Source: Catajapyx aquilonaris (lineage: Eukaryota). Taken from it: DNA of 64,000 nt. The stretch covers positions 124,001-188,000 of the forward strand of contig KZ537963.1 of NCBI GenBank assembly GCA_000934665.2, given 5' to 3'. Positions 2 to 41,300 of this stretch are shown in pieces. The position numbers and the translations under genes are program-made. The notes beneath the pieces were generated by a model that saw nothing but the letters and a program-made list of their open reading frames with translations, did not search any database and was not told the origin of the DNA. The stretch's first letter is position 1; every line of letters starts with the position of its first letter.

Positions 2-6636
<6,635 letters not shown>

Positions 6637-6925
6637 ACTTCTCTGCAGCGTTACGCTCAGACGAATCAGCAGTGTGAGGGAAGGATGCTCTAGCTGCACC
6701 GAATACCGCCAAACAGAGAGCAGAGAGAGGGAAACGCAGCAGGTCTTTCCGACACACAAGCTCCTCTGACTCAGCTTCTCCGGAAAAGGAACAAAGCCGT
6801 GCCGTGGGGCCGAATATCGCTGAGCGGTTCATTAAAAAGCTGCTTTCAAAACGAGAAGCAGCTCTGCGCATATCGGCCTCTCTGCGCGCGCACCTGGATC
6901 GAAATGGAACACCGAAGATGAAGCC
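6637..6925. promoter_or_regulatory. Putative compact bidirectional CpG-rich promoter shared by DDX5/17 and the zinc-finger gene
   Basis: Divergent start codons at 6636 (-) and 6926 (+); CpG/GC-rich interval; YY1-like caacatggccgcc at 6544-6556 and aatggcggccatcttg at 5958-5973 in the adjacent DDX intron. Confidence 0.6.
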
Positions 6926-8652: not shown

Positions 8653-8728
8653 TGATGGTCAAAGTTATGTTCATCTGAATTTACGAATAAATTCAGCCAC
8701 GAAGTGCTTTGCCTTGCAATATTTCCTC
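8581..8728. repeat. Inverted duplication of the CDS 3' end centred on the stop codon
   Basis: 8614-8645 versus 8653-8684: 32 bp with 1 mismatch, loop gtattaa. The outer arm gaggaaatattgcaaggc is mirrored by gccttgcaatatttcctc. Confidence 0.9.
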
Positions 8729-9133
8729 CTTTTTTTTTTACACTTGATGTAAATAAGTAACTTTGATGTAAATAAATAGATTTTGAATGAAATATTAGTA
8801 AGATGAATCTTTCTCTTTTTTCCCACCTCTGACCCCCAGATGCGAGCAAACAGGCCATTTTTAACAGGGACAGGAAAGTCCCGCCTCTGCACTCATAACG
8901 CCGCCATTTTGATGGCAGGCCAAAATTGGCCGCGAGAGGCGCGCAACAGGAAATGGGTCAATCCGGGTCAATCCATGAAATGTCTCCTCTCCCACCCACG
9001 CCATGCTGTATATTACATTAAACGCAATTATGGGTTCTTCAAATTTATCATAATTATGATTATTTGTTTCGACACCTGGCGGATAGGAAACGCACTAGAG
9101 CTAGAGTATTATTCGAAATATTAGGAGGCGAAA

Positions 9134-9598
9134 ATGGAGAGTCCGGCTTACAAGATGTATGTGGAGGATCTGCAGAAGATGGAGAGGGTTGGGAGCAAGG
9201 CGTGGGCATACAGGCTGACTCAGGAGGTGCTGCTGGACGTGGAGTTGGTGCACGTGCAGGGTACGCTCCTGGAGGTACTGCCGGACAACGTGGTCGTTGT
9301 GGACGACGGGACCGGGTCGGTCAGGCTCACCCACTGCCAGGAGACTATAGACGGTTGCGACTGGGCACGGGAAGGTACGCATCGTACCACCCTGATGGCT
9401 GCAGAAAGTAACAATGAAATTTGTATTACAGGCATGTACGTGTCGGCTTCAGGACGACTGGTGTCCATAAGCCCACCAGAAATCCATGCCGAAATGCTAA
9501 ACGATCGATCAGACAACCCTTACATCAAGGAAATGTGGCCTCTGGAAATCAAGGAAGCGAGACTGTACCTCGCCAACGAAATTGAACCGGACGTGTAG
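9134..9598 (+). CDS. RMI2: RecQ-mediated genome instability protein 2 (OB fold). Exons 9134-9374, 9432-9598
   Basis: VHVQGTLL...VVDDGTGSV...GMYVSASGRLVSISPPEIHAEMLNDRSDNPYIKEMWPLEIKE resembles the RMI2 pattern (VWMQG...DxSG...GxYVxVxG...KMTDLSDNP...MWxLEV). 57-nt GT-AG intron. Confidence 0.85.
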   Translation: MESPAYKMYVEDLQKMERVGSKAWAYRLTQEVLLDVELVHVQGTLLEVLPDNVVVVDDGTGSVRLTHCQETIDGCDWAREGTHRTTLMAAESNNEICITGMYVSASGRLVSISPPEIHAEMLNDRSDNPYIKEMWPLEIKEARLYLANEIEPDV

Positions 9599-11293
9599 CA
9601 TCCCTAGAAAAATAATGAAACAAATTGTGTTGTGTGTGTGCTTTCATGTATATTGTTTCATGGAAGATGCGTGTCACCCCCTCTCTTTTTATGAGTATAC
9701 AGAAAAACTGCTTCAGAAAAATACAATTTAAAAATATAACGTTGATGCTATATTGTACTTGTGTCGTCATCATTTTTTTTTTACCCTCTCACTAACAAAT
9801 TTGCTTCTTTTTTTTTGTAAAATGCAGTGTTTACATTACAACAACATTTAAAAAGTAATCCCCCCCCCCCCGTCATTTTNCAACATACAAAATCAATCTA
9901 ACCGCCCCAGCCTTATAATTACCTTTACAATATCGAGTCGTTCTCATCATGATGTATAAATAAGTTGCAAAAATGGGAGATGTTGATTAGGAAATGAAGT
10001 GCATGCATTAAGATCAGGACTGCATGAACATGGAGCGTACACAACAACAGACATTACAAGAAGAATAGCCTACACCACTGCCATTATTACATTACCCAGA
10101 TGCATACAGCAAATATTTTCGTAATGTCAAGATGGTCTTGTACAAGCGCACTGAGTAGTTGAAACTGTTTGACTTTATGCTCATTTTGTAACATAAAACT
10201 GTTTTCTCGCAATTGGTAACCATAACCAGTAATGAGGCAATGTCCATTAATGAATCTGAAATTATCGGCAAAATTATTAATATTTTACTTATTTATTTTC
10301 ATTACCGCATGTGACGGCAAATTTTTGGAAAATTATGTGCAGACATTTCCAAGTCTGCATATTTTGTACCAATTTGGTTCCATGACTTTGGCTTATAAAA
10401 TCTTTTACCATCTCCCAAATGCGTACTGCACACTTCATCAGAAAACTGACTTGATCACCAGAAAGGACTCGAAACAATTAATAACTCAGTTATGAACAAA
10501 TTGCCAGCGACTATTGTGCATTGAAGACGTTCCATGTTAGTGTCCGAAAGCATCCAGTGCATAAGCCTAAGGGAAGTTTGTTACACGTTAATAGTGTTAT
10601 TATGTGAATGGCATGAGTATTATAAATGTAGTAATATCTCCGACATATGCAAACAGCCCAGTAACATAATTACTGCCATAGCCTGCATGAAGATGCCTAA
10701 TTATGCAAACAATAATCATAGTGGTAATGAGCACTGTAACTTCTTCAGCAAGTACAATAGCTATGGCTTTTCAATGTATTGCCTCCACCTTTATGGCTAC
10801 TGTAGTACCTTGACGGCATGTGTCAATGTTTGGAGGTAGGTTTTGAGAGGAACGTAACATATGCCCTGGAATAATGCTAAATTCATAAGGCATGGGCTTG
10901 TCAAAAGCAGACCCGCACGACATATACCCTGAAATAAGTTTGGCATTCCTCTTAATAATTTACACTCCATGTTCATGCACTCCTGATGATGTATACCAAA
11001 TGACTAAAGGAAGACATTGGGCTAAGCCCTAGAACCCAAACCAGTTTCACAGTTTGACCTTCAACTTATTTATATAAAAAAAAAACACTGGCTGCAAAAG
11101 ATGCAGGAATATTCGTCCTTAATAATTAACCTTTCCACAAAGCACCGCGCCACGGTGCAACTCGTAACAATAAATTAACACTCAATAATCCCAATGACTG
11201 AGCAAAAGAATTTCCTCCTTCCTCTCTCCCCGCCTCACCACTTGCATCACAAAGTTGAGCCAAAGAGTTGCGGCAATGTTGGGAAGAACTAAT

Positions 11294-14200
11294 TCATGAC
11301 ACTGCGCAGCTTCCAGCAGCCGCATCCGTGTCCTCCCCGTCAACAACTTCCCCTCCTCCCGCCCCAACAGCACTTCCCACCTCCTTCCCCGCATGAGACA
11401 GTGCTTCTCCGTCCGCCTTCTTCCCAGCTCCCCTGTCCTCTTCGTCACACTTTGGCACTGTGTGGTGGTGGTGGTAGTGCCTGTCCTTCACTGTTTCCAG
11501 AAGCCCACCTCCTGTATTGTTCGCGATTGAAGATGTGGGGCTGGGGGATGGGCCAGTCTGAGTCCCTGCAATGCTGGGCAGCCTCAGTGGCGACATCACC
11601 TTCTGCGGAAGCAGCTTGGCCAAGACTGACACTTGGGTGCGCATGGCCAGCATGAACGGCTTGTATCCCAGGCTGTCAAGTAGAGAAAGAGTATATAACT
11701 TTCCGCATATTACGTCAGTCCAGTGTGACTCACCATTCTGTGTCGCTCCAGCTTGCCAGTGCTAAAAGGCCTTCCCGGAGGCGCAACACCACGTCAGATG
11801 GCTGATCAGGCGACCTGGCAGCGTTGATGGTGCGTATGACTGCCATTGCATCGCGAAGAAGGATGGACACGACCAGAGCCCACTCCAGGCAGCCCGACTC
11901 CATAAACATTTGGAGGAGATATCTGTATAACAATTTCGACAATGAGACAATCTGGAACGTAGTCGAGACAATCTGGAACGTAGTCGAGTCAATCTGGAAC
12001 GTAGTCGAGTCAATCAAAAGCCAATACCTGAGCTGAACTTCGGCCTTTGGCAATCCTCGATTAGCCATCTCCATAGAAACCTGCTCCAATTCCTGGCTGG
12101 TGACCAAGTCAGTCAGACTATTTGCTTCGGATATTACCGGATCTCGTTCCGTCTCACCCCAGAATGAGTTGCTCTCCTCGCTCACCAGGCTGCCATTTTC
12201 TGCGAACAATCAGGAAGGAATTAAGCGCATGAATGACGTACAAATAACTTCTTGTACAGTATATGTGTGTACAGAATGCATCATACAAACGTAAAAAAAT
12301 GCAGGTGAACGCATCGAGGAAAAGAGAATGCTCACCTGCGCCATGCTCAGGATGGGGCATGAGCCTCGCTTCCATGGCCTGGATGTCCATCTCACTACCA
12401 CCATTGCCTCCGATAGCAGCCGGAGCACCGCTGATCCCTATACCTGGACCAGGATGACTTATGTAGCCGCTGTCTCCTATCCTGCTATTTGACTGGCTGA
12501 GAGATGACACGCCAGACACGTCGATCGTCAGCAGCCTCATCCTGTCCTCGATTGTTGGCGATACTGGGTTGGATCGGCTTGACGATCCTGTTCGAAGCGG
12601 ATTGTTATTACGATAACACCCACTACTTGGGGTGTACGACCAACCTGAGCTGGAAGGTTTCCGTTGCAAGTAGTATGAGACTGGATGAGTCAAGATTGGG
12701 TAGGGCCACATGAAGTCAGCATGCAGTCTCTTGATCATTGCGACCGAGTCCGTGAGCATGGCAGCCGAGTGCCTCTCCTTCTGGAGCCATCCAACCAAGT
12801 GGAAGTCAAGATGTGCAGCGAATGTACCCAAATCCCTGAGGCGACACTGAGACAGCAGCCTCCTCGCATGCCTCTGCAACAACCCGTCTAAGAACCACTC
12901 GGGAGATGGGGACAACGGGACTCCATCCTCATAATCATCAGACACACTGTTATTCACCTGCAAATATTTTCTTATGTTGTTTATCGCCTGACAGGCTTTC
13001 ATAGCAAAATGTCACGATCGAATTAAATGACACAACTGACCTGGCACACTTGTCCTGGAAGCCCCAATCCACTGCTGCTCATTCCAGGGACACTCTTTTT
13101 CCGCACCGGTATTGGGGCAGGTTTGGAGTCGACGCTTGCTCCACCGCTGACTCGAGAACCATCGGTGCCTCGGTGGGAAGGATCCACCAAGGAAGGCTTG
13201 GGCACGGTGGAGGTGCTGAAGGAGCGGACACGCTGCACTTGCATGGTTCCCAGCAGCAGGGAGAGGTCCTCCTCATTGGGGCTCACTGGAGGAGTCGGTG
13301 GGGTTGGGCCATACTTGGACGGGAAGACAAACGAAGTGCGGGGAGATTCTACATCCTTTGGGTCTGGATTAGAGAGACATAATTAGTACGCTAATCATGG
13401 AAAAGTACCGCATCTAACTAACCAATAGCCCTGAGAAATCGGACAAGATCCTTGGCCAGGTCCCACTTGCAGCCGTCTAGCGCAGCATCAAGGAGCATGG
13501 TAGCATACTGCCTGCTGATGCTGGAGGGCTCCAGGTTTTGCAGGATGATGAGGTAGGAAGCTGCAGTGTTGAGCTTCTTCCTCTTGAGGCACTCCAGGAA
13601 GAGGTCCTTAGGCTTCCCTGCAGCCGTAAACAGGTAGGACCACAGAGCAATCTCTGTCTTGCGAGCACACTGCACCACAGTCTGTAGGTACACTGGGAAT
13701 TCCTGAATGAATTCAATCACACTAGGTAAGAGAGCATCAGGTATCGGCTCTTTGCTTGTCGCCTCCTCCTCCAGCACCTGAAAAAAATGCTAAGAATGTT
13801 CAACACCGTTGCGCACGACCATTCGCTACCAAGGTCTACTCTCTACAATGTCTACATCCTGATGTTTGAAATGCGACCTGGCTTCTACCGTGCAGACTAC
13901 AATTTTCGTATTTGTACCTCGTGAAGGAGAAGTTCCAGCGAGTGAGGGAAATAGGGCAGATTTGTACAGCTCCGAGCAATTTCCCAGGCATGGAAGCCCA
14001 AGTTGCGACGGATCAGCTGCCGGAGAATTTGATGCAGGTACACTTCACTCTGTCAAAATACAAGTCATGAGTTAATTCTGCCGCTTGATACACCAAATCT
14101 GCGTAACATACCGTCCTTTCAAGTACACAAAATGGAAGAGTAGCAGGGGTGTTGGCATCAGCGCTAAACAGTACCGTGTCATTCTCAGCGCCAACAATTA

Positions 14201-29600: not shown

Positions 29601-31558
29601 TCTTATCAAAAGGGGCTATCGACCTGAATGGCTATATTAAGGTGGGGATATTTTCCATGTAGTGTTACACAAATAACTGACTGTTATTTCCTCTGCAGAT
29701 TGGAGACAACACGTTCCCAAACTTGATGGCCATACTTACAGGATTAAATGAGACAAGCCTAAACAAATTATGCTGGGGCAATGCAGACAAGAAACTGGAT
29801 GACTGTCCATTCCTATGGAAAGATTTCAGTGCAAAGGGCTACGTGACTGGCTATTCTGAAGATGTTGGAGAAGGTGGGAATTTCAACTCTCAGAAGACTG
29901 GATTTGTGGTTCAACCGGTTGACTTCTATACCCGACCTTCCATGAATGCTATGTTGAACGAGCTTCCAAACAAGATAAATCTCAATAATTACAAGGTGTG
30001 TTTTGCAGACAAGCTGGCTGTCAATGTCACTTTGAGCCATGCTAAAATGTTCGCTAATTCTTTTCAAAATGCACCTTACTTTGGATTGTTTTGGACAGAA
30101 TCTTTGTCACATGATGACATCAACACTGTGTCTTTAGCCGACAAACCATATTTACAACTCTTTGAGGAACTATTCTACAATCCAGAAACACTCAACCACA
30201 CCATACTGATCTTCTTCAGTAACCATGGACTACGATATGGAGACATACGTGGAACCTACTCGGGATGGTTAGAAGAACGGATGCCATTCTTCATGATCTG
30301 GCTACCTGACTGGTTCAAATCTCAGCATCCAAATGCTATTGCGAACTTGAACGACAATGTTGGGAGACTCACATCTCCATTTGACGTCCACTATACGCTT
30401 CGGGACATCCTGAACAACAATTTTGATGAGCCTGGATCCGACTCTCAGATTGGCCAAAGTTTGTTCCAACCAGTTCCAATGAATCGAACCTGTGCTGATG
30501 CAGGGATATCACCTCACTGGTGCACATGCCAAGAGTCAAGGAATATTGACAATTATGATTCAAGAGCGGAAGAATCCATTCATTACCTTATTGAACAGTT
30601 GAACATTTACGTGGCACCATACAAACAATGCAGCATTTTAGAGATTAAAGAAGTGGTTTCAACTCGTGTTTTCAGATCACAGATTAGTTCTAGTGCAGAA
30701 ATCGATACGAACAGGGCAATATCTGACTTTGTCATTGCCTTCCGAACCACCCCTGGAGAGGCCATGTACGAAGGAACTATTCGGTTCGCCCCAGACACAA
30801 ACAGTTACAGCATGTTGGGCCCCATTAGTCGCATCGATCCATACGGTAACACAAGCCATTGTATGAATGACAGTGAGCTAAAAAAGTACTGCTACTGCAT
30901 AAATCAAAGTTAATATTGTCGTATATCCCATGTCTTTATACTGTATTTTGCAAAATTGAATAAAGAACCAGCATATTATTACCTCAGGAGGCTTCATGTT
31001 CAGCACCTTGGTGATCCGCCCCTGCATGATCAGAAAATGCGGGTTGTTCACATTCAGCTGAACAGATCGGAACAGATCTTGCACCCGATTGTTCTGCACG
31101 TTGGTCCCATTAATCATGTACTTATTCTTGCCCCCGATCACCACCTGGCGTGTCACAGATATCTCCTTGTACTCCTCATACCCAACCGGACTCTGCGACT
31201 TGTTCTGGTTGTTAAAGCAGACCGTCACGGTGGCCTTGGTTATTCCAGCCTGGCCGCTCTTGTACACCAGATCCTGGAGGTTGTTAGCCCGAACCTGGGA
31301 AGAGAAGGAAAGGTAAGGAACATGTACGATTCAACCAATACTAGTTCGGGCTTTCCAATGGCCCTACTTTCCACACCCCCAAAAAAATACCTGGCTAAGA
31401 TTAGTGATTCCAAGCAGGAAACATATGGCGTCCAATATGTTCGATTTTCCACTCCCATTGAGTCCAGTGATTGCGTTGAACTGCGGATCGAAATCCTTGA
31501 TCTCCGTCCGGTTCCCGTAGGACTTGAACCCGTCCATTATCACAGATTCGATGTACAT
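23691..31558 (-). CDS. SMC2: Structural maintenance of chromosomes protein 2 (condensin), multi-exon
   Basis: [14 protein letters not shown]...[21 protein letters not shown] (Walker A), [42 protein letters not shown], hinge [84 protein letters not shown]. Confidence 0.98.
28393..30913 (+). CDS. DUF229 family (alkaline phosphatase/sulfatase superfamily) type II membrane protein, nested antisense in an SMC2 intron. Exons about 28393-28576, 28704-29044, 29140-29282, 29335-29641, 29699-30913
   Basis: N-terminal TM ([18 protein letters not shown]), CKIP...[55 protein letters not shown]...[42 protein letters not shown]...LKKYCYC; AATAAA at 30959. Confidence 0.9.
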
Positions 31559-32076
31559 GGCTCCCAACTTTTCGAATCCTTTCAAAAAAATCGACAAAAA
31601 TCGAACGGGCTTTTCAGCAGCCCACAACGGCCTTTACCGCCATTTTCCAATAAGCCAAGGATGCTGCAATCAACGGACTAGCATGTTCCGGCAACACTAA
31701 ACGGATATCAAGTGGCCATAAATTCTGCACTTTAATTAATATCCAAATAATGCCATAAATGTTATTAATAATTGCCTAATTTATTTTATTCCGATCTACT
31801 TCTAACATGAATGGGGCAGATGGCAGTAGTATCGCAGCGTCTAGCTATAGCCGTTACTTTCTAAATAGCCGTTATTTTCATACCAACTGATGGCGATTTT
31901 CAGTTAGCGGCTATGCTTCGTTTGGCCTAACCTGGGTCTGAAATGCCAAGATGGCGGCCCCCGTGCGGCTTGTAACTGACGCAATGCTTTCGGCTTTCTT
32001 TGGAATGTGTCGCATCGATTGACTTCCAGTGGAGGTCGGCTTGTTGGCCAGTCGAGCGAGGGTCAAGGGCAGGAGG
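31559..32076. promoter_or_regulatory. Putative bidirectional promoter between SMC2 and RTCA copy 1, with a YY1/Pho consensus CAAGATGGCGGC at 31947-31958
   Basis: Divergent start codons about 520 bp apart; exact YY1 consensus. Confidence 0.6.
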
Positions 32077-33759
32077 ATGTCGTCCGAAACAGATGTGGAT
32101 GGATCCACGTTGGAAGGGGTGAGATCCATGGGTGAATTTAAAGGATTAATTTTTTAAATGCGTTTTTTTTTTTTTAAATCAGGGAGGACAGATTATCCGG
32201 ATGACTATGGCGTTTAGTGCGCTTCTAGGCGGTCCGGTTAGAGTGCAGAATATACGGGCTGGAAGGAGCAAGCCGGGTCTTCAGGCGCAGCATCTGAAAG
32301 GTATACGTGTTGGGACACACTCTGATATGGTTTGAGTGACGTGATTTGTTTGCAGGTTTGGAGCTGGTGAGGGACATATGCAGAGGGAAGCTACGAGGAG
32401 CAGAGATTGGGTCGACGGAGATTACGTTCCACCCAGGGAAAATCAGCAATGGAAAATATTTAGCTGATATAACAACTGCGGGGTGAGCGTCATTGCTGGT
32501 GTGATATGAACACGATTTTACATGTCGTACTTTGCAGGAGTGTTGGTCTTCTTGTCCAGGTTGCGCTACCCTGTGCACTCTTTGCGCGTGGACCCACAGA
32601 GCTGACCCTCCGAGGCGGAACAAATGCGGACATGGCGCCTCCCATTGACTACACCTTAGAGGTGTTCAAACCCGTCGTTAAGAGGTTCGGAGTTGAATTC
32701 GACCTGCAGATAATCAGGCGGGGTTACTTCCCACGAGGAGGAGGGGAAATACAGCTTCAGATAAACCCGGTGAAGGAACTTGCGCCTGTCACCATGTTGG
32801 ATCCAGGCCAGGTGTCGAAAGTGTATGGATGGTGCTACGTCGCAGGGGTTGTGCCGATCAAAGTGAGTTTTAGGTTGTCGATGTGTCGTATGGAAAGCTG
32901 GTAACGGATGTGACCTTTAGGTGGCCCACGCAATGGCTCAGGGTGCCAACACGGAGCTGCGGAAGCAGTTTCCACGCTTGCAGGTTTACATCCAGTGCTA
33001 CAAAGAGAAGCCGCAAGAGGCTATTGGAAATGGCTCTGGCATAAAGTATGGAGTGCCATCTGTCGCTTTATGTTCATTAAGTTCATACCTGTTATGTTGA
33101 CCAAGCGACACTCGTTCCTCTCGCTTCCTTTAGTAATAATGGTAGTGGGATTTTGGGTGTCGCATATCAAAATATATGAATTCTTCACCCATCGTTACCT
33201 GTTGATGGTGATGTTTGGTTTTGCATGTTCATACATTTCCACATAACTTTTGTCGTAGCCCGTTTTAAACATTTTCAATGTTACATAATTATTTGCTATT
33301 TCACAGCTTGGTGGCTGAAACCACGACTGGTTGTCTCCTGGGAGGATCTGGCCTTGGCAAACGTGATGTACCACCTGAAGAAACTGGTCGTACAGCAGCA
33401 CTGGAAGTATTGCAGTGTCTCAATGAAGGCGTGTGTGTAGACAAACGCATGCAAGATCAGGTTAGGATGAATGTGACGGCAAATGTTTCATACATTTTAA
33501 CTGGTACTTTTCCTTCCATTACAGATCATCATATACATGGCACTGGCCAATGGAAAGTCAAGAGTGAAGTGTGGGACGTGTACGTTGCATACACAGACAG
33601 CAATACATGTGGCTCATCTTATGACTGGCGTGAGTTGCTGAAATGTCATTTGCTTGGTGACATTTTAAAAGCTTTTTTGTATTTAATTTTCAGGCCAAGT
33701 TCAACGCCAGTGATGATGGCATCCTTGAATGTGATGGAATCGGACTCTCTAGTCAATAA
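32077..33759 (+). CDS. RTCA: RNA 3'-terminal phosphate cyclase, copy 1, about 353 aa. Exons 32077-32118, 32183-32300, 32356-32482, 32538-32862, 32921-33045, 33307-33460, 33525-33629, 33694-33759
   Basis: [68 protein letters not shown], catalytic TLHTQTAI; 1062 nt in frame. Confidence 0.96.
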
Positions 33760-33991
33760 TGAATCTGTGGAGGACTTTCGAAAAGTATTAACGACTCCTG
33801 TATTTCTCTTCAGGGTATTCCTGACCTGCAATTAATTGTCATTATGTGACATAAAGGGAACAATAAAGATTACCTGGAAATAATACGACTTCAAAAATAA
33901 TGTCCCGCTATTTTGCCTTGTGCATGTCAAACACCTTTCTGTGAAGAATTGCACTCAACTGGATACAACAATATGCACGATTTTAGCATGA

Positions 33992-34217
33992 TTTTCACTC
34001 CTTCCACTTGATGTGACTCCCACTCGTTTTGAGTCAGAATCACTATTGTTATCATTCGAGTGAAATATTATCACGTAAAATTAGCGATAATTTCAAATAG
34101 CCTCCCGCTCATTTCCACTCTTCTTTCGTGTAATTTTCTACTCGATTTGAGATCAAGTATATCTTTGAGGAGTGAAATTCGTTCAAAAAGAGCACTTTGC
34201 AAAATTGCTCATTTTTT
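33992..34217 (+). repeat. Interspersed repeat, copy 1 (second copy at 41981-42197)
   Basis: ttttcactccttccactt...tgactcccact...tttgagtca...gcgataatttca...gctcattt.cactcttctttcg.gtaattttcta...ttgaggagtgaaattc...aaaaagagca...aaattgctcattt is shared by both copies. Confidence 0.85.
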
Positions 34218-35061
34218 GAAATTCTCAGCGTGATATACAGGGTGACCACGCTAACTCTGGCAAACACCACAGGGTGGGTAGAGGCCCCATAGGCAAGTAT
34301 TTTGAGCTTCGGTACCCATGTCCGGAAATGCCCCCCCGTTTTCAGGAATTCCGAAAATTTTGCTCGGGCTTTTGTCTGAGTCGCGGGCCGGATCCATGCA
34401 CTAGCGTATTCGAGGAGTGTCATCATCATAGGGCTGATAAGAAGAACGAATACGGTAGATCTCCCTCGGGGTTTCCCACATATGCCTCCACATCCAATCA
34501 GACCTCCTGCTTATTGCATCACATGGCCACACAGGTTCACCCTTCGCTATTTTCCTGTATGATGACTAGTCCTTCCACAGTGCACAGCCGACAGCCATGC
34601 TTAGTAGAGACAAGTGCTAATAACTCTTGACAAGTTCTTGGTAGAGCTCTTTGGTATGCCCGAGAGACACCCAACCTGATCTGATAGCACCTAATGGATC
34701 ATTATAGGAGTCCTTTAGGCTATAACGATCGTCTGTTAGGCCATATCGCATCGGTAATTTCGTTGGTGCAATCGGGTAGTATTACATGTACAGTGTAAGA
34801 TATTTGAACAATGTGGCCGGTGCAGGCTGAACTGCGAGTGTTTCATTTCGAGTGTGTTGCCAGGGATTAGAAAATAAGGTACCTTTTTCTAATCCCTGGT
34901 GTCGCAAACAATGGACGAATTTTCGTCCCACTGCTAGTTACTGCTAACTTTGAGGCTTCCATATTATTTTTAAATCTTAATTATTGCATCTCTCCCCTGC
35001 TTGAATGTGTAAGATTTGTATGGTCGGCTTGTTGGCCCGTCGAGTGAGGGTCAAGGGCAGT

Positions 35062-37327
35062 ATGTCGTCTGAAACGGATGTAGATGGATCCACATTGGAA
35101 GGGGTGAGCCAGATGCAGGGTTTTAGTGCATTTAAATTTACTCCTTTCCATCAGTTGCCATGTCGAAATGGCGCGCAACTGGAAAGTCCTCAATTATTGT
35201 GCTTAAATGTGCTGATTTTAATAATAATCAGGGAGGACAGATTCTCCGGATGACTATGGCATTCAGTGCACTTCTGGGAGGTCCGGTTAGAGTGCAGAAT
35301 ATACGGGCTAGAAGGAGCCAGCCTGGTTTGCAAGGGCAGCATCTGAAAGGTATACGGACAAAGGTTGCTGGTCATTTTTATAGGGTGGAGCGAAAAACAT
35401 GGACTTGTATAACACTGCGTCAAACGTGACATGACGTGTTATGGCATAGTCATGTACAGCAGTGATATTTTTCAGCAAATTTCGAGATGGTCTAGCAACA
35501 TTTCGGCTTACTTGATTCGGAATGACCCATATGCACTATTTCCAGGAATTTGGTTTTATGACTGCAACTGCCCCCAAGGCCAAAAACAAATCCCAGACAA
35601 AAGAAATGCTCAATTATGAGTTACCAGTGACCTAAGTAACATGGAAATAGAGGCGGATTTCCATGGGAAAAAATCGTGTTGCATTGAATATTGTTGTGGT
35701 GTTCTCGCAAAAATTGCGAAACTTGAAGGTTCTTTTGTCGAATGAAGATGAAGTACGAAAATTACTGCTATAGTCCAATAGTCCATACACAACTTTTGAC
35801 ACCCCGTGCTATTTAATGGGACAACTTTCATGGTTTTCGCTCCAGCCTATTGGTCATTCTGCGAACGGTTGAGTGACGGAGGTTTGTTGCAGGTTTGGAG
35901 CTGGTGAGGGACATATGTGGTGGACAACTCAGAGGAGGGGAGATTGGGTCAACAGAGATTACATTCTACCCAGGGAAAATCAGAGATGGAAAATATGTAG
36001 GTGAAATATTGGCGGCTGGGTGAGTGATTATCTTTTCAGGCTGGACACATGAGCATTGTTTTAACGTAGTAACTATACCTTGCAGGAGTGTCAGTCTTCT
36101 TGTCCAGGTTGCGCTACCCTGTGCACTGTTTGCAAGTGGACCGACATACCTGACCCTCCGAGGCGTCACAAATTCGGACATGGCGCCTCACATCGACAAC
36201 ACTTTGGAGGTGTTCAAACCTGTTATGAAGAGGTTCGGAGTTGAATTCGACCTGCAGATAATCAGGCGGGGTTACTTCCCACGAGGAGGAGGCGAAATAC
36301 AGCTTCAGATAAACCCGGTGAAGGAACTTGCGCCTGTCACCATGTTGGATCCAGGCCAGGTGTCGAAAGTGTATGGATGGTGCTATGTCGCAGGGGTTGT
36401 GCCCATCAAGGTGAGTTTTAGGTTTGAGTTGTATGGAAAGGTGGTAACGGATGTGACCTTTAGGTGGCCCACGCAATGGCTGAGGCTGCCGACACTGAGC
36501 TGCGGAAGCAGTTTCCATGCTTGCAGGTTTACATCCAGTGCTACAAAGAGAAGCCGCAAGAGGCTATTGGAAATGGCTCGGGAATAAAGTATGGATGCCT
36601 GTTAAATATGCTTTCAAAGTGGAGTAGCTCAATTTGAGTTCACACGTGTTATGTTGCCCAAGCGATGCTCGTTCCTCTCGCTTCCTTGAGTAATAATGGT
36701 AGTGGGATTTTGGGTGTCGCATATCAAAATATCTGAATACTTCACCCATCTTTACCTGTTGATGGTGATGTTTGGTTTTGCATGTTCATACATTTCCACA
36801 TAACTTTTGTCGTAGTAGCCTACGTTTTAAACTTTGCAGATTTGCTTTTCAATGTTACGTATTTGGCGTTTCACAGCTTGGTGGCTGAAACCACGACTGG
36901 TTGTCTCCTGGGAGGAAATGGCCTTGGCAAATGTGATGTACCACCTGAAGAAACTGGTCGTACAGCAGCACTAGAAGTATTGGAGTGTCTCAGTGAAGGC
37001 GTGTGTGTAGACAAATACATGCAAGATCAGGTTAGGATGAATGTGACTGAAAATGTTTCATACAATTTAACTGGTGTTTTCCCTTCCATAACAGCTCATC
37101 ATATACATGGCACTGGCCAATGGAAAGTCGAGAGTGAAGTGTGGGACGTGTACGTTGCATACACAGGCAGCGATACACGTGGCTCATGTTATGACTGGAG
37201 TGAGTTGCTAAAATGTCATTTGCTTGGTGACATTTTAAAAGCTTTTTTTGTATTTAATTTTCAGGCCAAGTTCAATGCCAGTGATGATGGCATCCTTGAA
37301 TGTGATGGAATCGGACTCAGTCAATAA
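35062..37327 (+). CDS. RTCA: RNA 3'-terminal phosphate cyclase, copy 2 (tandem paralog with the same 8-exon structure; intron 2 expanded to about 540 nt)
   Basis: All exons and GT-AG junctions are retained and no stop or frameshift was seen; [41 protein letters not shown] near 37437. Confidence 0.92.
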
Positions 37328-38363
37328 TGAATCTGTGGAGGACTTTCAAAAAGTATTAACCGGCGACTCCTGTATTTCTCTTCAGCAGGGTATTCCTGAC
37401 CTGCAATTAATTGTCATTATGTGACATAATGGGAACAATAAAGATTATCTGGATATAATACGACTGCAAAAAGAATGGCCCACTATATTTTGCCTTATGC
37501 ACCGTCAAACGCACCTTTCTATGAAGTATTCCACTCGACTGGATACAACAATATGCACGAATTTAGTATGATCGAGGCTATTACTTGTATAAGCTCATCT
37601 TTGAATAGATATGTGGGACTAGTATTTTTGATCACCTTGTGTAAGAACTTGTATTGAACTAATCGGAATTTGCATATTTGCATTGGTCTAAGAAGGCAGA
37701 GGCCTTAATATTGCACAGCATAAAATAGGGTTGTTCCGTAACGATTCAGAAAACATTATCTAGTTAAAGTTGCGTGAATGTGAGCCTTTGTTTGTTTTGT
37801 CGAGACTCTAAACACAACGAATGCTGAAAATGCTGCTTGCACTCAATAATAATTGTCTGCTGCTACACTATAGATACAGACTGAACATACAAGAGTCAGG
37901 ACACACCTAGTCATACAGGGAAATAAAATGAAAGCACAAAGTCTACGCAATAAAAAAGTTGTAATATCAGCTCTTTGTACACATTGGCATATATTTTTTA
38001 AAAGTACAAAAACCCTTGGCAAGTAATACCCCGTAGAGACAAGAGGCGTCATAATTATATATATTAATGTACACTCACGCTTTTACACTATCGGGTGGGG
38101 CATCATCCTACGCTACCAAACAATAACCCAAGGCAAGTTGCAGCCTTCCAGGTGACAATCATATCTGTCCGGGAGATAGAAATCACAGTAAAAATGGACC
38201 ACTGAAAGCGTCTGTTTTACGTGTTTGGTAGTAAGAATACAACACTGAGGAGATACTTGAGGTAGTTAAGCTTGGTCCACGGGTCTGCTGCATTGATTGG
38301 TGAATCCGAAGCACAACGACCCAACGACCAGCTTTGACTCTCAGTGCTTTTTGAAAGAGTGTA

Positions 38364-41300
38364 TCAGGAAATGATGCAGTTTTTGTCCTTTTCAGATGCC
38401 TTGTTTCTGGGCTGCGTTCCAGGCGATATGTCTGCAACGGTGGAGTTGCTGATACCTGGTCTCTGTCTGGCACAAGCGAAGGCATCGTTGGGGACATAAG
38501 ATATCCGTACACCTCCATATGCCTGTCTGGGAGGAAGCTCGTAAGGATCATCATCGTCGCTGCTGGAGCTGGAACAAGTGGAGCATCTCTCTTCATCGTG
38601 CGGCTGCTGTGGAGGCGGTGGTCTTCTTAAGAACTTGTCCACAACCTGGTCCTCAAGAGTGATGTCTGCGGCTGTCCGGTGTCGTCTTGGCGGTTGTGTC
38701 TCCACTTCTGGGTGTCCAGAGTACGACCTGCTTCTGGGAAACACCCGACGTCCTTCTGCCCGACCGACAGTGGATGCTTTGGCCGGCAGCTGTGTGCAGT
38801 GGCTGCTGGATGAGCTGGTGTCTGAGTGCTCCACAACCGCTGTTTCGTCGAACCGTACCGTCAGCTGCTTCCCACTTGTTGGTGTCTCCACAAGGTTGCT
38901 CTTCCGGGGCGACTCAGATTCGACCAAGTTGGGCATCGACGAATGTTCCACAACAGCGATGGCTCCAGGGTTTGGACAATTGGCTCGACCTTTGACCGCC
39001 TCGCCAGCCCATGCCAACCACGCTTCCAGGTTGTCATCAGTCAACGCTGTGGGCGTCAGCGGTTGTCGACTCCGCCTCTCTCGTCCTTCAGCAACCAAGC
39101 GACCTAATGTGCGCTCCAGCACAATCCGGTCCAGACTTCTCTCCAGCACCACCCGCTCTCCCTGGAACGCCAAGCTGGAGTCTGAACTACCACATCCCAA
39201 CGCAGACTCATCCGTCTGCAACCCAACCTCCTGGGTCGACGGTGAGGACGCCGATACTACAGGTGATGCTGGAGACGATGCGGACACTGCAGGAGATGGC
39301 GACTTCCTTCTGGAGCTGGTGTCTTCAGATGGTGGCGGAGAACTGGATGCCACACTGGTGCTGGTGTTGGTCTTGACCCCTCGTCTTCTGGGTGAGTGTG
39401 GACTTGACCCTTCGCTCATCTCAGACGCAGAGTCCTGGACCGGAGGCAGCATCTTCAGCTGGTAGTGGCTGAGTCGACTCCTCTGCGTCCTGACCCTCCT
39501 TTCAGCCAGGGGCGAGATCGGGGGCGAGGCCGTCTCTGACCCCAGCTCAGACAACGGGGGCGAAGGATGGGCAGCCGTGGCCGAGACGCGTCTGAGGAAC
39601 GGTGGCGGCCTGGCTGGTGTCGTTGGAGTGTTGGCATTGCTGTCCGTAGGCGTCGGAGGCTCACCTTTGCTGCAGGCAATGGAGCAGTAGATGGACCCTC
39701 GACGAGGAAGGAAAGGACGACCAAGGAGGGACGACCGACATGTCTGGCAGCAGAAACACTCTTCTGTCGCATGCCAATGCTGACCCTCATGGCTCATCTG
39801 ACCTGCAACATTGTTAAAAATGTGATGGAAGCCTGATCTTTACTACAGGACGAAATGGCAGGTGGAGGGCGGTGGCAGTTCAGAGAGCAGGTGACACTGA
39901 CAGGACAGGTCCGTCCATTAGCATGATAATTTTAGTTAGGTTGCGGACCTGGGCGTTTATTGTGCTGGGTTATGCAACCGCAAATACAGTTGAATCCGGA
40001 TATAACATACTAGGACCGCAGAAAAAGTATGTCTGTTATATCCGGATTAGACTGTGGCGCCGCAAGCCAACGAACGTTATTGTGGCATTGCCACGGCCAG
40101 ATGCGCTCTCTGAACTGCCCATACCTCCAACCACTTCGTCGCGTAGTAATGATCATCCGACGCTGTACCTTGATCAACTCCGATGGGATCCCCGCAGGCG
40201 TCGCAGTACTCGGCAAACATAGCGTCGAAACAATGCAGACAGTACGGCTTCCCATCCCGCATGATGTACCGCTGTCCTCCGAGTTGTCGATCGCACTCGA
40301 AGCATGCAAAGTGCTTCATGTGCCAAGCCCTTCCTTCCGCCTCGGTACACTCGTCAGCCAGTATGATCTATAGGAAAATAAATAATAAAAAGAAACCCAT
40401 CATAAATCAAAAAGAGATTGTAGCGTGCACCATTTGTCATCTTCCGCTACTTTTTTTTAATATAACAAAAATTACATTCCCCAGTGGGTACACATAGTTT
40501 CTCTGGCAGTTATTATCACTTTCCTCGCGACCACCCGCGACATTAGCTCCGGAAAAAGAAAAGCACTTTGGGGACCTGTGATGGGCTGGCCACATGAACC
40601 CAAAAATGGGTCCGGATCACGGCATGCTTTTTTACCTCATCGCAGGCGGCGCAACGAGGTTTCAGCGTCTCTGCATGGTGTCGACCACAGTATAGTTGTC
40701 CTTCTCTGAAGAAGTAGATCAGGTCGATCAGAAGCTCTCGACAGACTGAACACACGAAGCAGGCGGGATGCCAACAGGCTGATGGACCTGCTCTGGAGGC
40801 GAACACTGCGATGTCTCCACCGGACAATGCTTCTTTGCACTGCGGGATTGGGGGGTGTTACAACATATACTTTAAAGTACTTAGCATGTACACGTACATT
40901 GCAGCAGACCATAGGCGCTTGCAGGTTGACAAGTAGTTGTCGGACGGTACCACGTCCCAAGGCATCTCTTTTCCTCTGGGCAGAAAACAGCCGGAGCTCC
41001 TTCTTCTCCTCTTCGGACAGCCCATGACAATACCGGACTTCGTTGTCATGTGGAGGCAACTGGTGCAACAACTGACGTACCCTGTACTTCTCACCCACGG
41101 AATTCACATACGGAATCTTATCCTCAGGCAGCGCCGCAAAGTACAAATGGACCTGCAACAAAAACAGAATCGATTGTAATATGGACGCCTCAATCGGAGA
41201 CGCAGCTGGAGCGTCGTCTCCCTCGAAACAAAAACGACGCCTCCCCCGATAAATTAAAGACGTGAGTGGAATGTGATTGGGAAAGAGAAAAAAAAACAGT

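What the first reader, a model, noticed from the sequence alone, without database searches (positions are those of the whole stretch)
32077..37327. Tandem RTCA paralogs with reciprocal changes in the adenine-binding pocket
Seen: both copies are intact and keep the catalytic His (TLHTQ) and the RNA-end residues (LEGGGQxxR, NIRxxR, QHL). Copy 1 has [13 protein letters not shown] but DKRMQDQ (CGC at 33446). Copy 2 has DKYMQDQ but [13 protein letters not shown] (AAC at 36198) and ILAAGS in place of ITTAGS. Established (recalled from the E. coli RtcA-AMP structure): adenine stacks between Tyr284 and Pro131, and Phe135 packs on the purine C2 edge to enforce ATP preference. Copy 1 has Arg at the Tyr284-equivalent position and copy 2 has Asn at the Phe135-equivalent position. 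Inference: a normally single-copy RNA-end enzyme has split into paralogs with different nucleotide pockets, and copy 2 may accept GTP or other NTPs.
Basis: partly seen in the sequence, partly recalled or inferred. Interest (0 to 1): 0.72.

Follow-up and report, generated by a model that had tools for sequence, protein, structure and literature searches.

The report
Tandem RNA cyclase (RTCA) gene duplicates
An arthropod genome carries two neighbouring intact copies of the RNA-end cyclase gene RTCA: the first looks ordinary and is transcribed, while the second evolves faster and has unusual changes where the enzyme holds its nucleotide and its RNA, so it may work differently or be starting to decay.

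Summary
Two head-to-tail RTCA genes lie at 32077-33759 and 35062-37327. Each has 8 exons, GT..AG introns and an open frame, and the proteins are 90% identical. The residue equivalences to E. coli RtcA hold. Copy 1 has Arg at the Tyr284 site. Copy 2 has Asn at the Phe135 site.

The copies are separate loci, not haplotypes: DNA contigs show flank-like depth on both. An independent sample holds a perfectly matching spliced transcript of copy 1, including the Arg codon. No RNA was seen for copy 2, and the duplication left copy 1's upstream region behind.

Divergence is asymmetric. Copy 2's end branch is 3-4 times longer. Copy 2 departs at 11 of 110 conserved columns, and four of its residues (Ala94, Val123, Asn134, Ala322) occur in none of about 280-330 homologues. 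Copy 1's Arg recurs in at least three other intact RTCAs, so it is probably tolerated.

Pairwise dN/dS is 0.26. In the older 5' half, neutrality is rejected even for copy 2's lineage. The 3' half has been homogenised by gene conversion. Three of four adenine-base contact sites differ between the copies.

Verdict: a real, partly constrained, divergent paralogue. A change in nucleotide preference is plausible but untested.

The parts
31959..33886 (+). RTCA copy 1, the transcribed unit as far as it was seen. The CDS runs 32077-33759 in 8 exons.
   Evidence: Gene model. One 1307-nt contig of run X5 (a different sample and study from the DNA runs) matches with 0 mismatches. It carries all 7 predicted GT..AG joints. 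A contig cannot show true transcript ends.
35062..37327 (+). RTCA copy 2 CDS, 8 exons, 352 aa, open frame, with an AATAAA-containing 3' flank retained.
   Evidence: Gene model. Pfam RTC scores 94.5 bits and RTC_insert 33.2 bits. No RNA contig was laid on it, which is not evidence about expression.
32034..33992 (+). Duplicated unit A. It begins only 43 nt upstream of the copy 1 ATG, inside copy 1's 5' UTR.
   Evidence: blastn HSPs and direct-repeat families D1-D13.
35022..37572 (+). Duplicated unit B. It is longer than unit A because introns 1, 2 and 5 are larger.
33446..33448 (+). Copy 1 codon 293, CGC (Arg), at the E. coli Tyr284 / P. horikoshii Phe283 adenine-stacking site.
   Evidence: Alignments. 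The CGC is present in the X5 transcript contig. Copy 2 has TAC at 37016-37018, a two-nucleotide difference.
36198..36200 (+). Copy 2 codon 134, AAC (Asn), at the E. coli Phe135 site. Copy 1 has TAC (Tyr) at 32650-32652.
   Evidence: Alignments. Asn occurs in 0 of 106, 0 of 132 and 0 of 92 homologues.
36917..36919 (+). Copy 2 codon 260, AAT (Asn), against TCT (Ser) in copy 1 at 33347-33349. This position aligns with P. horikoshii Asp250, which hydrogen-bonds adenine N6.
   Evidence: Direct alignment. Structural role from PMC4174438 passages. The difference is two nucleotides.
36165..36167 (+). Copy 2 codon 123, GTC (Val), in the GGT motif (E. coli Gly124).
   Evidence: Gly occurs in 106/106, 131/131 and 92/92 homologues. 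Human RCL1 has Val here, in LRGVTN.
36012..36014 (+). Copy 2 codon 94, GCG (Ala), in place of the Thr of the TAGS motif (P. horikoshii Thr91, which binds an RNA phosphate).
   Evidence: Ala occurs in 0 of 315 homologues. Role from PMC4174438.
37167..37169 (+). Copy 2 codon 322, GCA (Ala), three residues after the catalytic His (E. coli Thr312).
   Evidence: Ala occurs in 0 of 281 homologues.
35310..35312 (+). Copy 2 codon 41, AGA (Arg), at E. coli Gly42 / P. horikoshii Asn38. This is the tip of the loop that moves onto the RNA.
   Evidence: Arg also occurs in Hyalella RTCA and in human RCL1.
33588..33590 (+). Copy 1 catalytic His319 codon (CAT). The copy 2 equivalent is at 37158-37160.
   Evidence: Alignment to E. 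coli His309 and key-site table.
32680..32837 (+). Very recent gene-conversion tract. It shows 1 difference in 158 nt against 36228-36385. It starts about 30 nt 3' of the Tyr134/Asn134 codon.
   Evidence: Identical-run list. dS is 0.42 in the 5' part against 0.095 in the 3' part, Fisher P 3.5e-6.
33993..35021 (.). Spacer between the copies. It holds high-copy repeats at about 34104-34971.
   Evidence: Summed contig depth is about 200-12,600 there, against about 20-35 on the flanks.
35380..35850 (.). MITE-like insertion in copy 2 intron 2. It has 22-nt terminal inverted repeats (35380-35401 and 35829-35850).
   Evidence: Inverted repeat I1. High-copy depth over 35406-35839. Intron 2 is 55 nt in copy 1 and 543 nt in copy 2.

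Best explanation
[quoted passage not shown] Later gene conversion re-homogenised the region from mid exon 4 to the 3' flank.

Copy 1 is the working housekeeping enzyme. It sits next to the ancestral upstream region, head to head with an SMC-type gene. It is transcribed and spliced as modelled, and it evolves at an ordinary rate. Its Arg293 most likely replaces the aromatic lid by stacking its planar guanidinium on adenine; this is inferred.

Copy 2 is a fast-evolving paralogue that was kept under purifying selection for most of its history. It retains the whole nucleotidyl-transfer core: Glu13, Arg20, Arg39, Arg42, Gln50, His51, Asp296, Gln297 and His319. Its specificity-determining surfaces are remodelled:
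- The base pocket is smaller and polar (Tyr134Asn, Ser260Asn).
- The loop between the pocket and the RNA is changed (Gly123Val, Ala126Ser, Pro131His).
- RNA-backbone contacts are changed (Thr94Ala, Gly41Arg).

The most likely consequence is loosened or shifted nucleotide and RNA-end preference, possibly with lower activity, rather than plain loss of function. This consequence is inferred, not shown.
For: Shown:
- Both frames and all 14 splice sites are intact.
- Pfam RTC and RTC_insert, and NCBIfam TIGR03399, hit both copies.
- All catalytic and 3'-phosphate-binding residues are kept in both.
- Copy-specific DNA contigs have depths of 17-45, like the flank contigs at 21-35, in three runs.
- Copy 1 has a spliced transcript with 0 mismatches in another sample and study.
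- Introns 1-3 are 55-75% identical and introns 4-7 are 86-98% identical.
- dS is 0.42 for codons 1-143 and 0.095 for codons 144-351, Fisher P 3.5e-6.
- Pairwise dN/dS is 0.26.
- In the 5' part, neutrality of copy 2's lineage is rejected even if all replacements are put on it (omega 0.52, P 0.02). With 75% of replacements on it, omega is 0.39 and P is 0.0024.
- Simulated P(no stop | neutral) is 0.017.
- Gap openings number 12 per 612 aligned intron columns against 1 in-frame gap per 1059 exon columns, P 4.7e-5.
- End branches are 0.031 vs 0.097 (FastTree) and 0.022 vs 0.09 (IQ-TREE).
- With 11 outgroups, copy-1-unique sites number 3-7 and copy-2-unique sites 10-17.
- Copy 2 departs at 11 of 110 columns that are at least 90% conserved, and copy 1 at 4.
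- 3 of 4 adenine-base contact sites differ, P 0.0034.
- In the 3' part, the only amino-acid-changing two-nucleotide codon differences are codons 260 and 293, both contact sites.
- Exon 6 has N:S of 7:1 against 36:47 elsewhere, P 0.024.
- Arg at the Tyr284 site recurs in intact RTCAs.
Against: - In the recently converted 3' part, neutrality of copy 2's lineage is not rejected (P 0.23-0.41). A recent loss of constraint is therefore possible.
- Copy 2 lacks copy 1's upstream region, because homology starts 43 nt before the ATG. No promoter evidence exists for it.
- Four of copy 2's residues are unseen in about 280-330 homologues. Two of them are at invariant positions (Gly124, Thr312), which is also what early decay looks like.
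- 5 of 106 orthologues also depart at 11 or more conserved columns, though some of these may be faulty gene models.
- Synonymous changes could not be assigned to lineages because no close outgroup CDS exists. The best homologue is about 65% identical over exon 4.
- The contact-site enrichment is post hoc.
- The role of Phe135 rests on recall.
Confidence: 0.45

Rival explanations
1. Copy 2 is a duplicate in early decay. It was separated from the ancestral promoter, is silent or barely expressed, and was kept open so far by time and by repeated gene conversion from copy 1. Its odd residues are damage, not adaptation.
For: - The duplication starts 43 nt before the ATG, and repeats fill the spacer.
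- A MITE-like element sits in copy 2 intron 2.
- Copy 2's end branch is 3-4 times longer.
- Substitutions occur at Gly124 (0 of 329 homologues differ) and Thr312 (Ala in 0 of 281).
- Neutrality is not rejected for copy 2 in the 3' part.
- Profile scores are lower than for copy 1 (TIGR03399 101.8 vs 116.7 bits).
Against: - The unconverted 5' part has dS 0.42 but omega 0.21, and neutrality is rejected for copy 2's lineage (P 0.002-0.02).
- There are no stops (P 0.017 under neutral substitution alone).
- There is no frameshift, although introns have about 20 times more gap openings.
- All 7 splice-site pairs and the whole catalytic core are intact.
- Gly41Arg and Gly123Val are the states of human RCL1, so they fit the fold.
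Confidence: 0.3
2. One reading: the two copies have split the ancestral job by nucleotide. Copy 1 and copy 2 have different NTP pockets, and copy 2 uses GTP (or another NTP) in place of ATP.
For: - Tyr134Asn removes the bulky residue at the Phe135 site. By recall of Tanaka et al. 2010, that residue packs on the purine C2 edge.
- Ser260Asn lies at the position of P. horikoshii Asp250, which reads adenine N6.
- Both Asn side chains could pair with guanine N2 and O6. This is inference.
- 3 of 4 base-contact sites differ.
- Codons 260 and 293 each differ by two nucleotides.
- Natural RTCAs with Glu at the Phe135 site exist in Euglena, Entosiphon and a heterolobosean, so the site is not obligatorily aromatic.
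Against:
- Copy 1's Arg is found in other intact RTCAs whose copy number I did not check, so a special pocket in copy 1 is unlikely.
- Many copy 2 changes lie outside the base pocket.
- Expression of copy 2 is unknown.
Confidence: 0.12
3. Both copies are equivalent, ordinary ATP-dependent cyclases (a dosage duplicate), and the substitutions are functionally silent.
For: - The catalytic core is identical.
- The proteins are 90% identical.
- Ongoing gene conversion keeps the copies similar.
Against: - The rate asymmetry is 3-4 fold.
- Copy 2 departs at 11 of 110 conserved columns against a median of 2 in orthologues.
- Copy 2 has residues never seen at four sites.
Confidence: 0.1
4. Assembly artefact: two haplotypes of one gene laid in tandem.
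For: Short-read contigs of the DNA runs mix the two copies locally. The X1 contig 33132-33504 switches to copy 2 letters after 33402. The X3 contig 32680-33036 has the copy 2 letter at 32745.
Against: - The switches sit exactly at identical runs of 31 nt or more (33363-33402, and 32680-32744 with 32746-32837). This is expected of a k-mer graph; that Logan's contigs use k=31 is recalled.
- Copy-specific contigs have flank-like depth, not half.
- Contigs run from copy 1's 3' flank through the spacer into copy 2 (33825-34295, 34306-34945, 34923-35456).
- Introns 1-3 are 55-75% identical with different lengths and a transposon, which is unlike alleles.
- The DNA runs may be the assembly's own source, so they are not independent evidence.
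Confidence: 0.03

Closest known systems
E. coli RtcA (PDB 1QMH, 3KGD, 3TUT)
   Same: Exon 4 of both copies matches at E 2e-15 and 8e-13. Glu14, Arg21, Arg40, Arg43, Gln51, His52, Pro131, Asp287, Gln288 and His309 are all conserved in both copies.
   Different: Copy 1 has Arg at Tyr284. Copy 2 has Asn at Phe135, Val at Gly124 and Ala at Thr312. The window's genes are eukaryotic genes with introns, not part of an rtcBA operon.
Pyrococcus horikoshii RtcA with RNA and adenosine (PDB 4O89, 4O8J; PMC4174438)
   Same: Pro127 and Phe283 touch adenine, Asp286 binds the ribose, and Thr91, Ala92 and Ser94 bind the RNA backbone. The equivalent residues are present in copy 1, except that Arg replaces Phe283.
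   Different: Copy 2 changes the equivalents of Thr91 (Ala), Asn38 (Arg), Asp250 (Asn, where animal RTCAs have Ser) and Tyr131 (Asn).
Animal RTCA orthologues (insects, crustaceans, vertebrates)
   Same: The two copies are sisters (support 100) inside an insect-rich clade (SH-aLRT 92) of RTCA proteins. Domain order and length are the same (about 353-365 aa).
   Different: The nearest homologue is only about 65% identical over exon 4. The tandem pair, and copy 2's residues at four sites, were seen in none of the homologues examined.
RTCA of the amphipod Trinorchestia longiramus (P0159), P0234 and P0312
   Same: These are intact RTCAs with Arg at the Tyr284 site. P0159 even shares the RMQDQIII context.
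   Different: They are not close relatives of the window's genes in the tree, so the Arg arose independently. Their copy number was not checked.
RCL1 (cyclase-like protein of the small-subunit processome; PDB 7MQ8, 3PQV, 4CLQ)
   Same: It is an ancient paralogue of the same fold that lost catalysis. Human RCL1 has LRGVTN and IRAR.., the same states as copy 2's Gly123Val and Gly41Arg.
   Different: RCL1 lacks the catalytic His and the Asp-Gln pair, and both window copies keep them. TIGR03399 (RTCA) scores above TIGR03400 (RCL1) for both copies.

Membership tests
RTCA / RtcA (RNA 3'-terminal phosphate cyclase, class with catalytic His) | RTC domain plus RTC insert domain | tested here: met
   PF01137 scores 102.4 bits (copy 1 exon 4) and 94.5 bits (copy 2 exon 4). 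PF05189 scores 37.3 and 33.2 bits (exon 6). All are above the gathering scores. Only single exons could be scanned.
RTCA / RtcA | Nucleophilic histidine (E. coli His309) that forms the enzyme-AMP adduct | tested here: met
   His319 in TLHTQ of both copies aligns with His309 of 1QMH and His307 of 4O89.
RTCA / RtcA | RNA 3'-phosphate and metal site: Glu14, Arg21, Arg40, Arg43, Gln51, His52 | tested here: met
   All six residues are present in both copies. Roles of the P. horikoshii equivalents come from PMC4174438. The role of Glu14 is recalled.
RTCA / RtcA | Ribose contact Asp287 and neighbouring Gln288 | tested here: met
   The DQ pair is kept in both copies. P. horikoshii Asp286 binds the ribose hydroxyls.
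RTCA / RtcA | Adenine sandwich: Pro131 plus an aromatic residue at position 284 | tested here: inconclusive
   Pro is kept in both copies. Copy 2 has Tyr and copy 1 has Arg. The site is not strictly aromatic in the family: N, R, Q, S, E, C and I also occur, and R occurs in 3 credible cases among 295 homologues.
RTCA / RtcA | Aromatic residue at position 135 on the purine edge | tested here: not met
   This is met in copy 1 (Tyr) and not met in copy 2 (Asn). Across homologues the site is Y/F/H in 104+1 of 106, 122 of 132 and 91 of 92. Glu occurs in 1+9+1, Ala in 1 and Asn in 0.
RTCA / RtcA | ATP-dependent cyclisation of RNA 3'-phosphate ends | not testable with these tools
   This needs the purified proteins.
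RCL1 (class II, non-catalytic) | Loss of the catalytic His and of the Asp-Gln pair; role in pre-rRNA processing | tested here: not met
   Both copies keep His and DQ, while human RCL1 has Tyr and S-L there. Both copies group with RTCA proteins.

The most novel reading that the evidence does not exclude
Copy 2 is a functional RTCA-family enzyme whose base pocket has been rebuilt: Tyr134Asn on the purine C2/N2 edge and Ser260Asn on the N6/O6 side, with Tyr293 kept as the lid. With this pocket it would accept GTP, alone or alongside ATP. It would then make RNA(3')pp(5')G or cyclise RNA ends with GTP. That would be the first cyclase of this family with a switched nucleotide, arising by a recent tandem duplication. 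The divergence would be protected from gene conversion, whose youngest tract stops about 30 nt short of the pocket loop.
Probability: 0.12. Interest if true: 0.7.

Novelty: new member of a known kind. Interest (0 to 1): 0.4.

Why it matters
RTCA is usually treated as a lone, slowly evolving RNA-end enzyme whose cellular role is still debated (review PMC13247085, passages). A natural pair in which one copy keeps the catalytic core but rewrites the base pocket and the RNA contacts would be a ready-made experiment on what sets nucleotide choice in this fold. It could also point to a second RNA-end activity in arthropods.

If copy 2 is only decaying, the locus is still a clean example of asymmetric divergence plus patchy gene conversion after tandem duplication, which is common and of modest interest.

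The survey also shows that the so-called aromatic lid (Tyr284 site) and the edge residue (Phe135 site) vary more across the family than the E. coli structure suggests. Arg recurs at the first and Glu at the second.

Tried and rejected
- No RNA holder was listed by the run search. The one transcript-like run (X5) gave no contig on copy 2 apart from a repeat piece at 35422-35532. This says nothing about copy 2 expression.
- No whole genome is held for the window, so other RTCA or RCL1 loci and genome-wide copy number could not be checked.
- No close relative exists in either protein library. The best hits are 65% identical and 58-63% identical over exon 4. I therefore could not run a lineage-specific codon model or test whether the duplication is shared with other species.
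- Tanaka 2010, Chakravarty 2011, Tanaka and Shuman 2009, Chakravarty and Shuman 2011 and Genschik 1997 are not held. Text searches found no paper with Tyr284 or Phe135 of RtcA. None of the 12 papers listed by a further search concerned RTCA paralogues (listing only).
- Structure prediction of the two full proteins was not attempted. The fold tools take only unspliced translations of the window, and a single exon would not show the pocket.
- The 'variants' in DNA contigs (CGC>TAC at 33446-33447 in X1, G>C at 32745 in X3) were considered as conversion alleles. I rejected them as most likely graph artefacts at shared runs of 31 nt or more. A real recombinant allele is not excluded.
- Earlier-findings look-ups returned nothing.
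- The script stopped at the twelfth outgroup, which was a row I had filtered out. The remaining analysis was rerun.

Full report
WHAT IS THERE

The window is eukaryotic, with short GT..AG introns, and no whole genome is held for it. On the + strand lie two head-to-tail genes for RNA 3'-terminal phosphate cyclase.

I rebuilt both models from the sequence:
- Copy 1 CDS is 32077-33759, with 8 exons and 353 aa.
- Copy 2 CDS is 35062-37327, with 8 exons and 352 aa.
- All 14 introns are GT..AG.
- Both frames are open.
- The proteins differ by 35 substitutions and one codon at the C-terminus, giving 90% identity.

As DNA, unit 32034-33992 matches unit 35022-37572 at about 88%, introns included. tblastn finds no further copy in the window.

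Family assignment:
- Pfam RTC and RTC_insert hit single exons of both copies above threshold.
- NCBIfam TIGR03399 (RTCA) scores above TIGR03400 (RCL1) for both copies.

Neighbouring genes:
- A DUF229 gene lies at 29681-30913.
- An SMC-type N-terminus lies on the minus strand at 31364-31633, head to head with copy 1.
- A LIM-domain gene lies on the minus strand at 38364-39839.

RESIDUE EQUIVALENCE

HMMER alignments of exon 4, exon 6 and two full-length orthologues to PDB chains give positions in 1QMH that agree with the published E. coli numbering. The mapping is:
- Pro131 is the first Pro of APP.
- Phe135 aligns with Tyr134 in copy 1 and Asn134 in copy 2.
- Tyr284 aligns with Arg293 in copy 1 and Tyr293 in copy 2.
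- Asp287-Gln288 and His309 are kept in both copies.

The roles of Tyr284, Pro131 and Phe135 in E. coli are recalled from Tanaka et al. 2010, which is not held. The one structural paper I could read, in passages, is Desai et al. 2014 (PMC4174438). It states for P. horikoshii RtcA:
- Adenine touches Pro127 and Phe283.
- Adenine N6 hydrogen-bonds to Asp250.
- Asp286 binds the ribose.
- Thr91, Ala92 and Ser94 bind the RNA backbone.
- The loop 37-42, with Asn38 at its tip, closes on the RNA.

By direct alignment, Asp250 corresponds to Ser260 in copy 1 and Asn260 in copy 2.

REAL LOCI OR AN ARTEFACT?

Four DNA runs (X1-X4) of one sample, possibly the assembly's own source, and one run of another sample and study (X5) hold the stretch. 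I laid X5 and three of the DNA runs, X1-X3.

Contig depths in X1, X2 and X3 respectively:
- Flank contig: 21.3, 35.3, 29.6.
- Copy-1-specific contigs: 17.9-31.5, 29.1-41.3, 26.1-33.3.
- Spacer contigs: 20.1-20.8, 26.9-30.3, 21.7-26.1.
- Copy-2-specific contigs: 17.2-25.8, 23.7-45.5, 18.2-43.4.

This is flank-like depth, not half of it. Contigs also chain copy 1's 3' flank through the spacer into copy 2.

Two DNA contigs mix letters of the two copies. The switches fall exactly at identical runs of 31 nt or more. That is what a k-mer graph produces; that Logan's contigs use k=31 is recalled.

Introns 1-3 are only 55-75% identical and differ in length: 64 vs 128, 55 vs 543 and 55 vs 66 nt. A MITE-like insert with 22-nt inverted ends sits in copy 2 intron 2. 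These are not alleles.

EXPRESSION

Run X5 contains one 1307-nt contig that matches copy 1 from 31959 to 33886. It has no mismatch and carries all seven predicted joints, and it includes the CGC Arg codon. Copy 1 is therefore transcribed and spliced as modelled, in an independent sample.

Nothing was laid on copy 2, which is not evidence about its expression.

The duplication starts 43 nt before the ATG, inside copy 1's 5' UTR. Copy 2 therefore did not inherit copy 1's upstream region. Its own upstream sequence is a spacer rich in high-copy repeats.

HOW THE COPIES EVOLVED

Nei-Gojobori counts give dS 0.218, dN 0.056 and omega 0.26. Divergence is strongly two-tiered:
- Codons 1-143 have dS 0.42 and omega 0.21.
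- Codons 144-351 have dS 0.095 and omega 0.36.
- The heterogeneity has Fisher P 3.5e-6.
- Introns 4-7 are 86-98% identical.
- One tract, 32680-32837, has a single difference in 158 nt.

I read this as an old duplication whose 3' two-thirds were re-homogenised by gene conversion, more than once.

Evidence for constraint:
- Exons have one in-frame gap per 1059 aligned columns, against 12 gap openings per 612 intron columns (P 4.7e-5).
- Neutral substitution alone would leave the frame free of stops in 1.7% of simulations.
- In the 5' part, neutrality is rejected for copy 2's lineage even if every replacement is placed on it (omega 0.52, P 0.02).
- In the 3' part, neutrality is not rejected (P 0.23-0.41).

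Copy 2 was therefore under purifying selection for most of its life. A recent relaxation cannot be excluded.

ASYMMETRY

The copies are sisters (support 100) inside an insect-rich arthropod clade. Support for that placement is SH-aLRT 92, on 50 rows that I chose from the 268 then held. The FastTree run used 108 rows.

- End branches are 0.031 vs 0.097 (FastTree) and 0.022 vs 0.09 (IQ-TREE).
- With 11 outgroups, sites unique to copy 1 number 3-7 and sites unique to copy 2 number 10-17. The binomial P is below 0.05 for 7 of the 11 outgroups.
- Polarised against 106 orthologues, 16 differences are derived in copy 2, 6 in copy 1 and 14 are ambiguous. The 106 come from the 120 listed; I dropped 14 outside 300-460 aa.
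- Of 110 columns at least 90% conserved, copy 1 departs at 4, and 38 of 106 orthologues do as much. Copy 2 departs at 11, the orthologue median is 2, and 5 of 106 reach 11.

HOW UNUSUAL ARE THE RESIDUES?

I surveyed three non-overlapping sets:
- Set 1: 106 animal orthologues.
- Set 2: 132 representatives of 50%-identity clusters. These come from 148 new ids, with 16 dropped for length; fragments lower n at each site.
- Set 3: 92 further hits to the Trinorchestia protein.

Tyr284 site:
- Set 1 has F 61, Y 25, H 19 and N 1.
- Set 2 has Y 44, H 27, W 11, F 7, N 3, R 3, I 1 and Q 1.
- Set 3 has Y 45, F 27, H 14, S 3, E 1, R 1 and C 1.
- The Arg cases are P0159 (Trinorchestia longiramus, an amphipod, with the same RMQDQIII context), P0234 and P0312. 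All three have intact catalytic residues.
- A fourth Arg case, P0169, looks like a faulty model.
- P0159 and P0234 do not group with the window's genes in the tree (P0312 was not in it), so Arg has arisen at least twice more elsewhere.
- Insect relatives have Tyr or His at this site. His (CAC) is one step from both CGC and TAC.

Phe135 site:
- Asn occurs in 0 of 330 homologues.
- Y, F or H dominate.
- Glu occurs in 1, 9 and 1 rows of the three sets. The Glu rows include Euglena, Entosiphon and a heterolobosean.

Copy 2's other changes:
- Val123: Gly in all 329 homologues.
- Ala94: Ala in 0 of 315.
- Ala322: Ala in 0 of 281.
- Arg41: otherwise seen only in Hyalella.
- Gly41Arg and Gly123Val are the states of human RCL1, the non-catalytic paralogue (LRGVTN, IRAR). 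They are therefore compatible with the fold.

POCKET PATTERN

Of the four positions that touch the adenine base by homology (130, 134, 260, 293), three differ between the copies. Overall, 35 of 351 positions differ. The hypergeometric P is 0.0034; the test is post hoc.

In the conversion-homogenised 3' part, the only amino-acid-changing codons that differ by two nucleotides are 260 (TCT/AAT) and 293 (CGC/TAC). Exon 6 has 7 replacement differences against 1 silent one, compared with 36:47 elsewhere (P 0.024). The youngest conversion tract begins about 30 nt after codon 134.

These points fit selection for, or at least tolerance of, divergence in the nucleotide pocket. They do not prove it.

READING

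Copy 1 is the ordinary, expressed RTCA. Its Arg is best seen as a tolerated planar substitute for the aromatic lid.

Copy 2 keeps the nucleotidyl-transfer core, but it has a smaller and more polar base pocket and altered RNA-backbone contacts. Most likely it is a constrained paralogue with shifted or loosened substrate preference (0.45). Early decay of a promoter-less copy is the main rival (0.30). A true switch to GTP is possible (0.12) and untested.

I found no paper on RTCA paralogues of this kind in three text searches (listings only).

SCORES

This is a lineage-specific duplicate of a known enzyme family. The sequence pattern is suggestive, but there are no functional data and no expression evidence for the interesting copy. 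Interest is 0.4.

Noticed in passing
window 35380-35850: A MITE-like element of about 470 bp with 22-nt terminal inverted repeats (91% complementary) sits inside intron 2 of copy 2. Contig depth over it is hundreds to about 1,900, against about 20-35 on the flanks, so it is a high-copy family in this genome.
   Followed up: partly
window 34104-34971: The spacer between the two RTCA copies holds very high-copy sequence. Summed contig depth reaches about 12,600 near 34755-34971, with many loose ends at 34916-34950. No Pfam hit was found on its two longest ORFs. It may mark how the duplication arose.
   Followed up: partly
window 31364-32076: Copy 1 lies head to head with an SMC-type gene (SMC_N hit on the minus strand, 31364-31633). 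The two genes probably share a bidirectional promoter region that copy 2 did not inherit.
   Followed up: no
window 32164: One X5 contig fits the window only from 32164 onward, inside copy 1 intron 1 at the T-run. Before that point it continues with 255 unrelated letters. It could be an alternative 5' exon, an unspliced form or a low-complexity join.
   Followed up: no
proteins P0236, P0254, P0210, P0232, P0213, P0127, P0134, P0142, P0145: A set of RTCA-family proteins carries Glu at the E. coli Phe135 site. It includes Euglena gracilis, Entosiphon sulcatum, a heterolobosean and unnamed metagenome sequences. Where those regions are present in the sequence, the catalytic residues are intact. 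These proteins are natural candidates for a different nucleotide preference.
   Followed up: partly
proteins P0159 (Trinorchestia longiramus), P0234, P0312; P0310 (Hyalella azteca): Arg at the Tyr284 stacking site recurs in intact RTCAs from other lineages. Hyalella has His at that site and Arg at the Gly42 site, as copy 2 does.
   Followed up: partly
window 36150-36170 and 35301-35315 (copy 2) vs PDB 7MQ8 chain SH: Two of copy 2's rare substitutions reproduce the human RCL1 state: LRGVTN (Gly to Val) and IRAR (Gly to Arg). This may be chance, or a small step toward an RCL1-like surface.
   Followed up: partly
window 29681-30913 and 38364-39839: The flanking genes are a DUF229 protein in a single 410-codon open frame on the + strand and a Ser/Pro-rich protein with a weak LIM-domain hit (22.4 bits, just under the 22.9-bit Pfam cut-off) on the minus strand. 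They would be useful synteny anchors for finding the locus in relatives.
   Followed up: no
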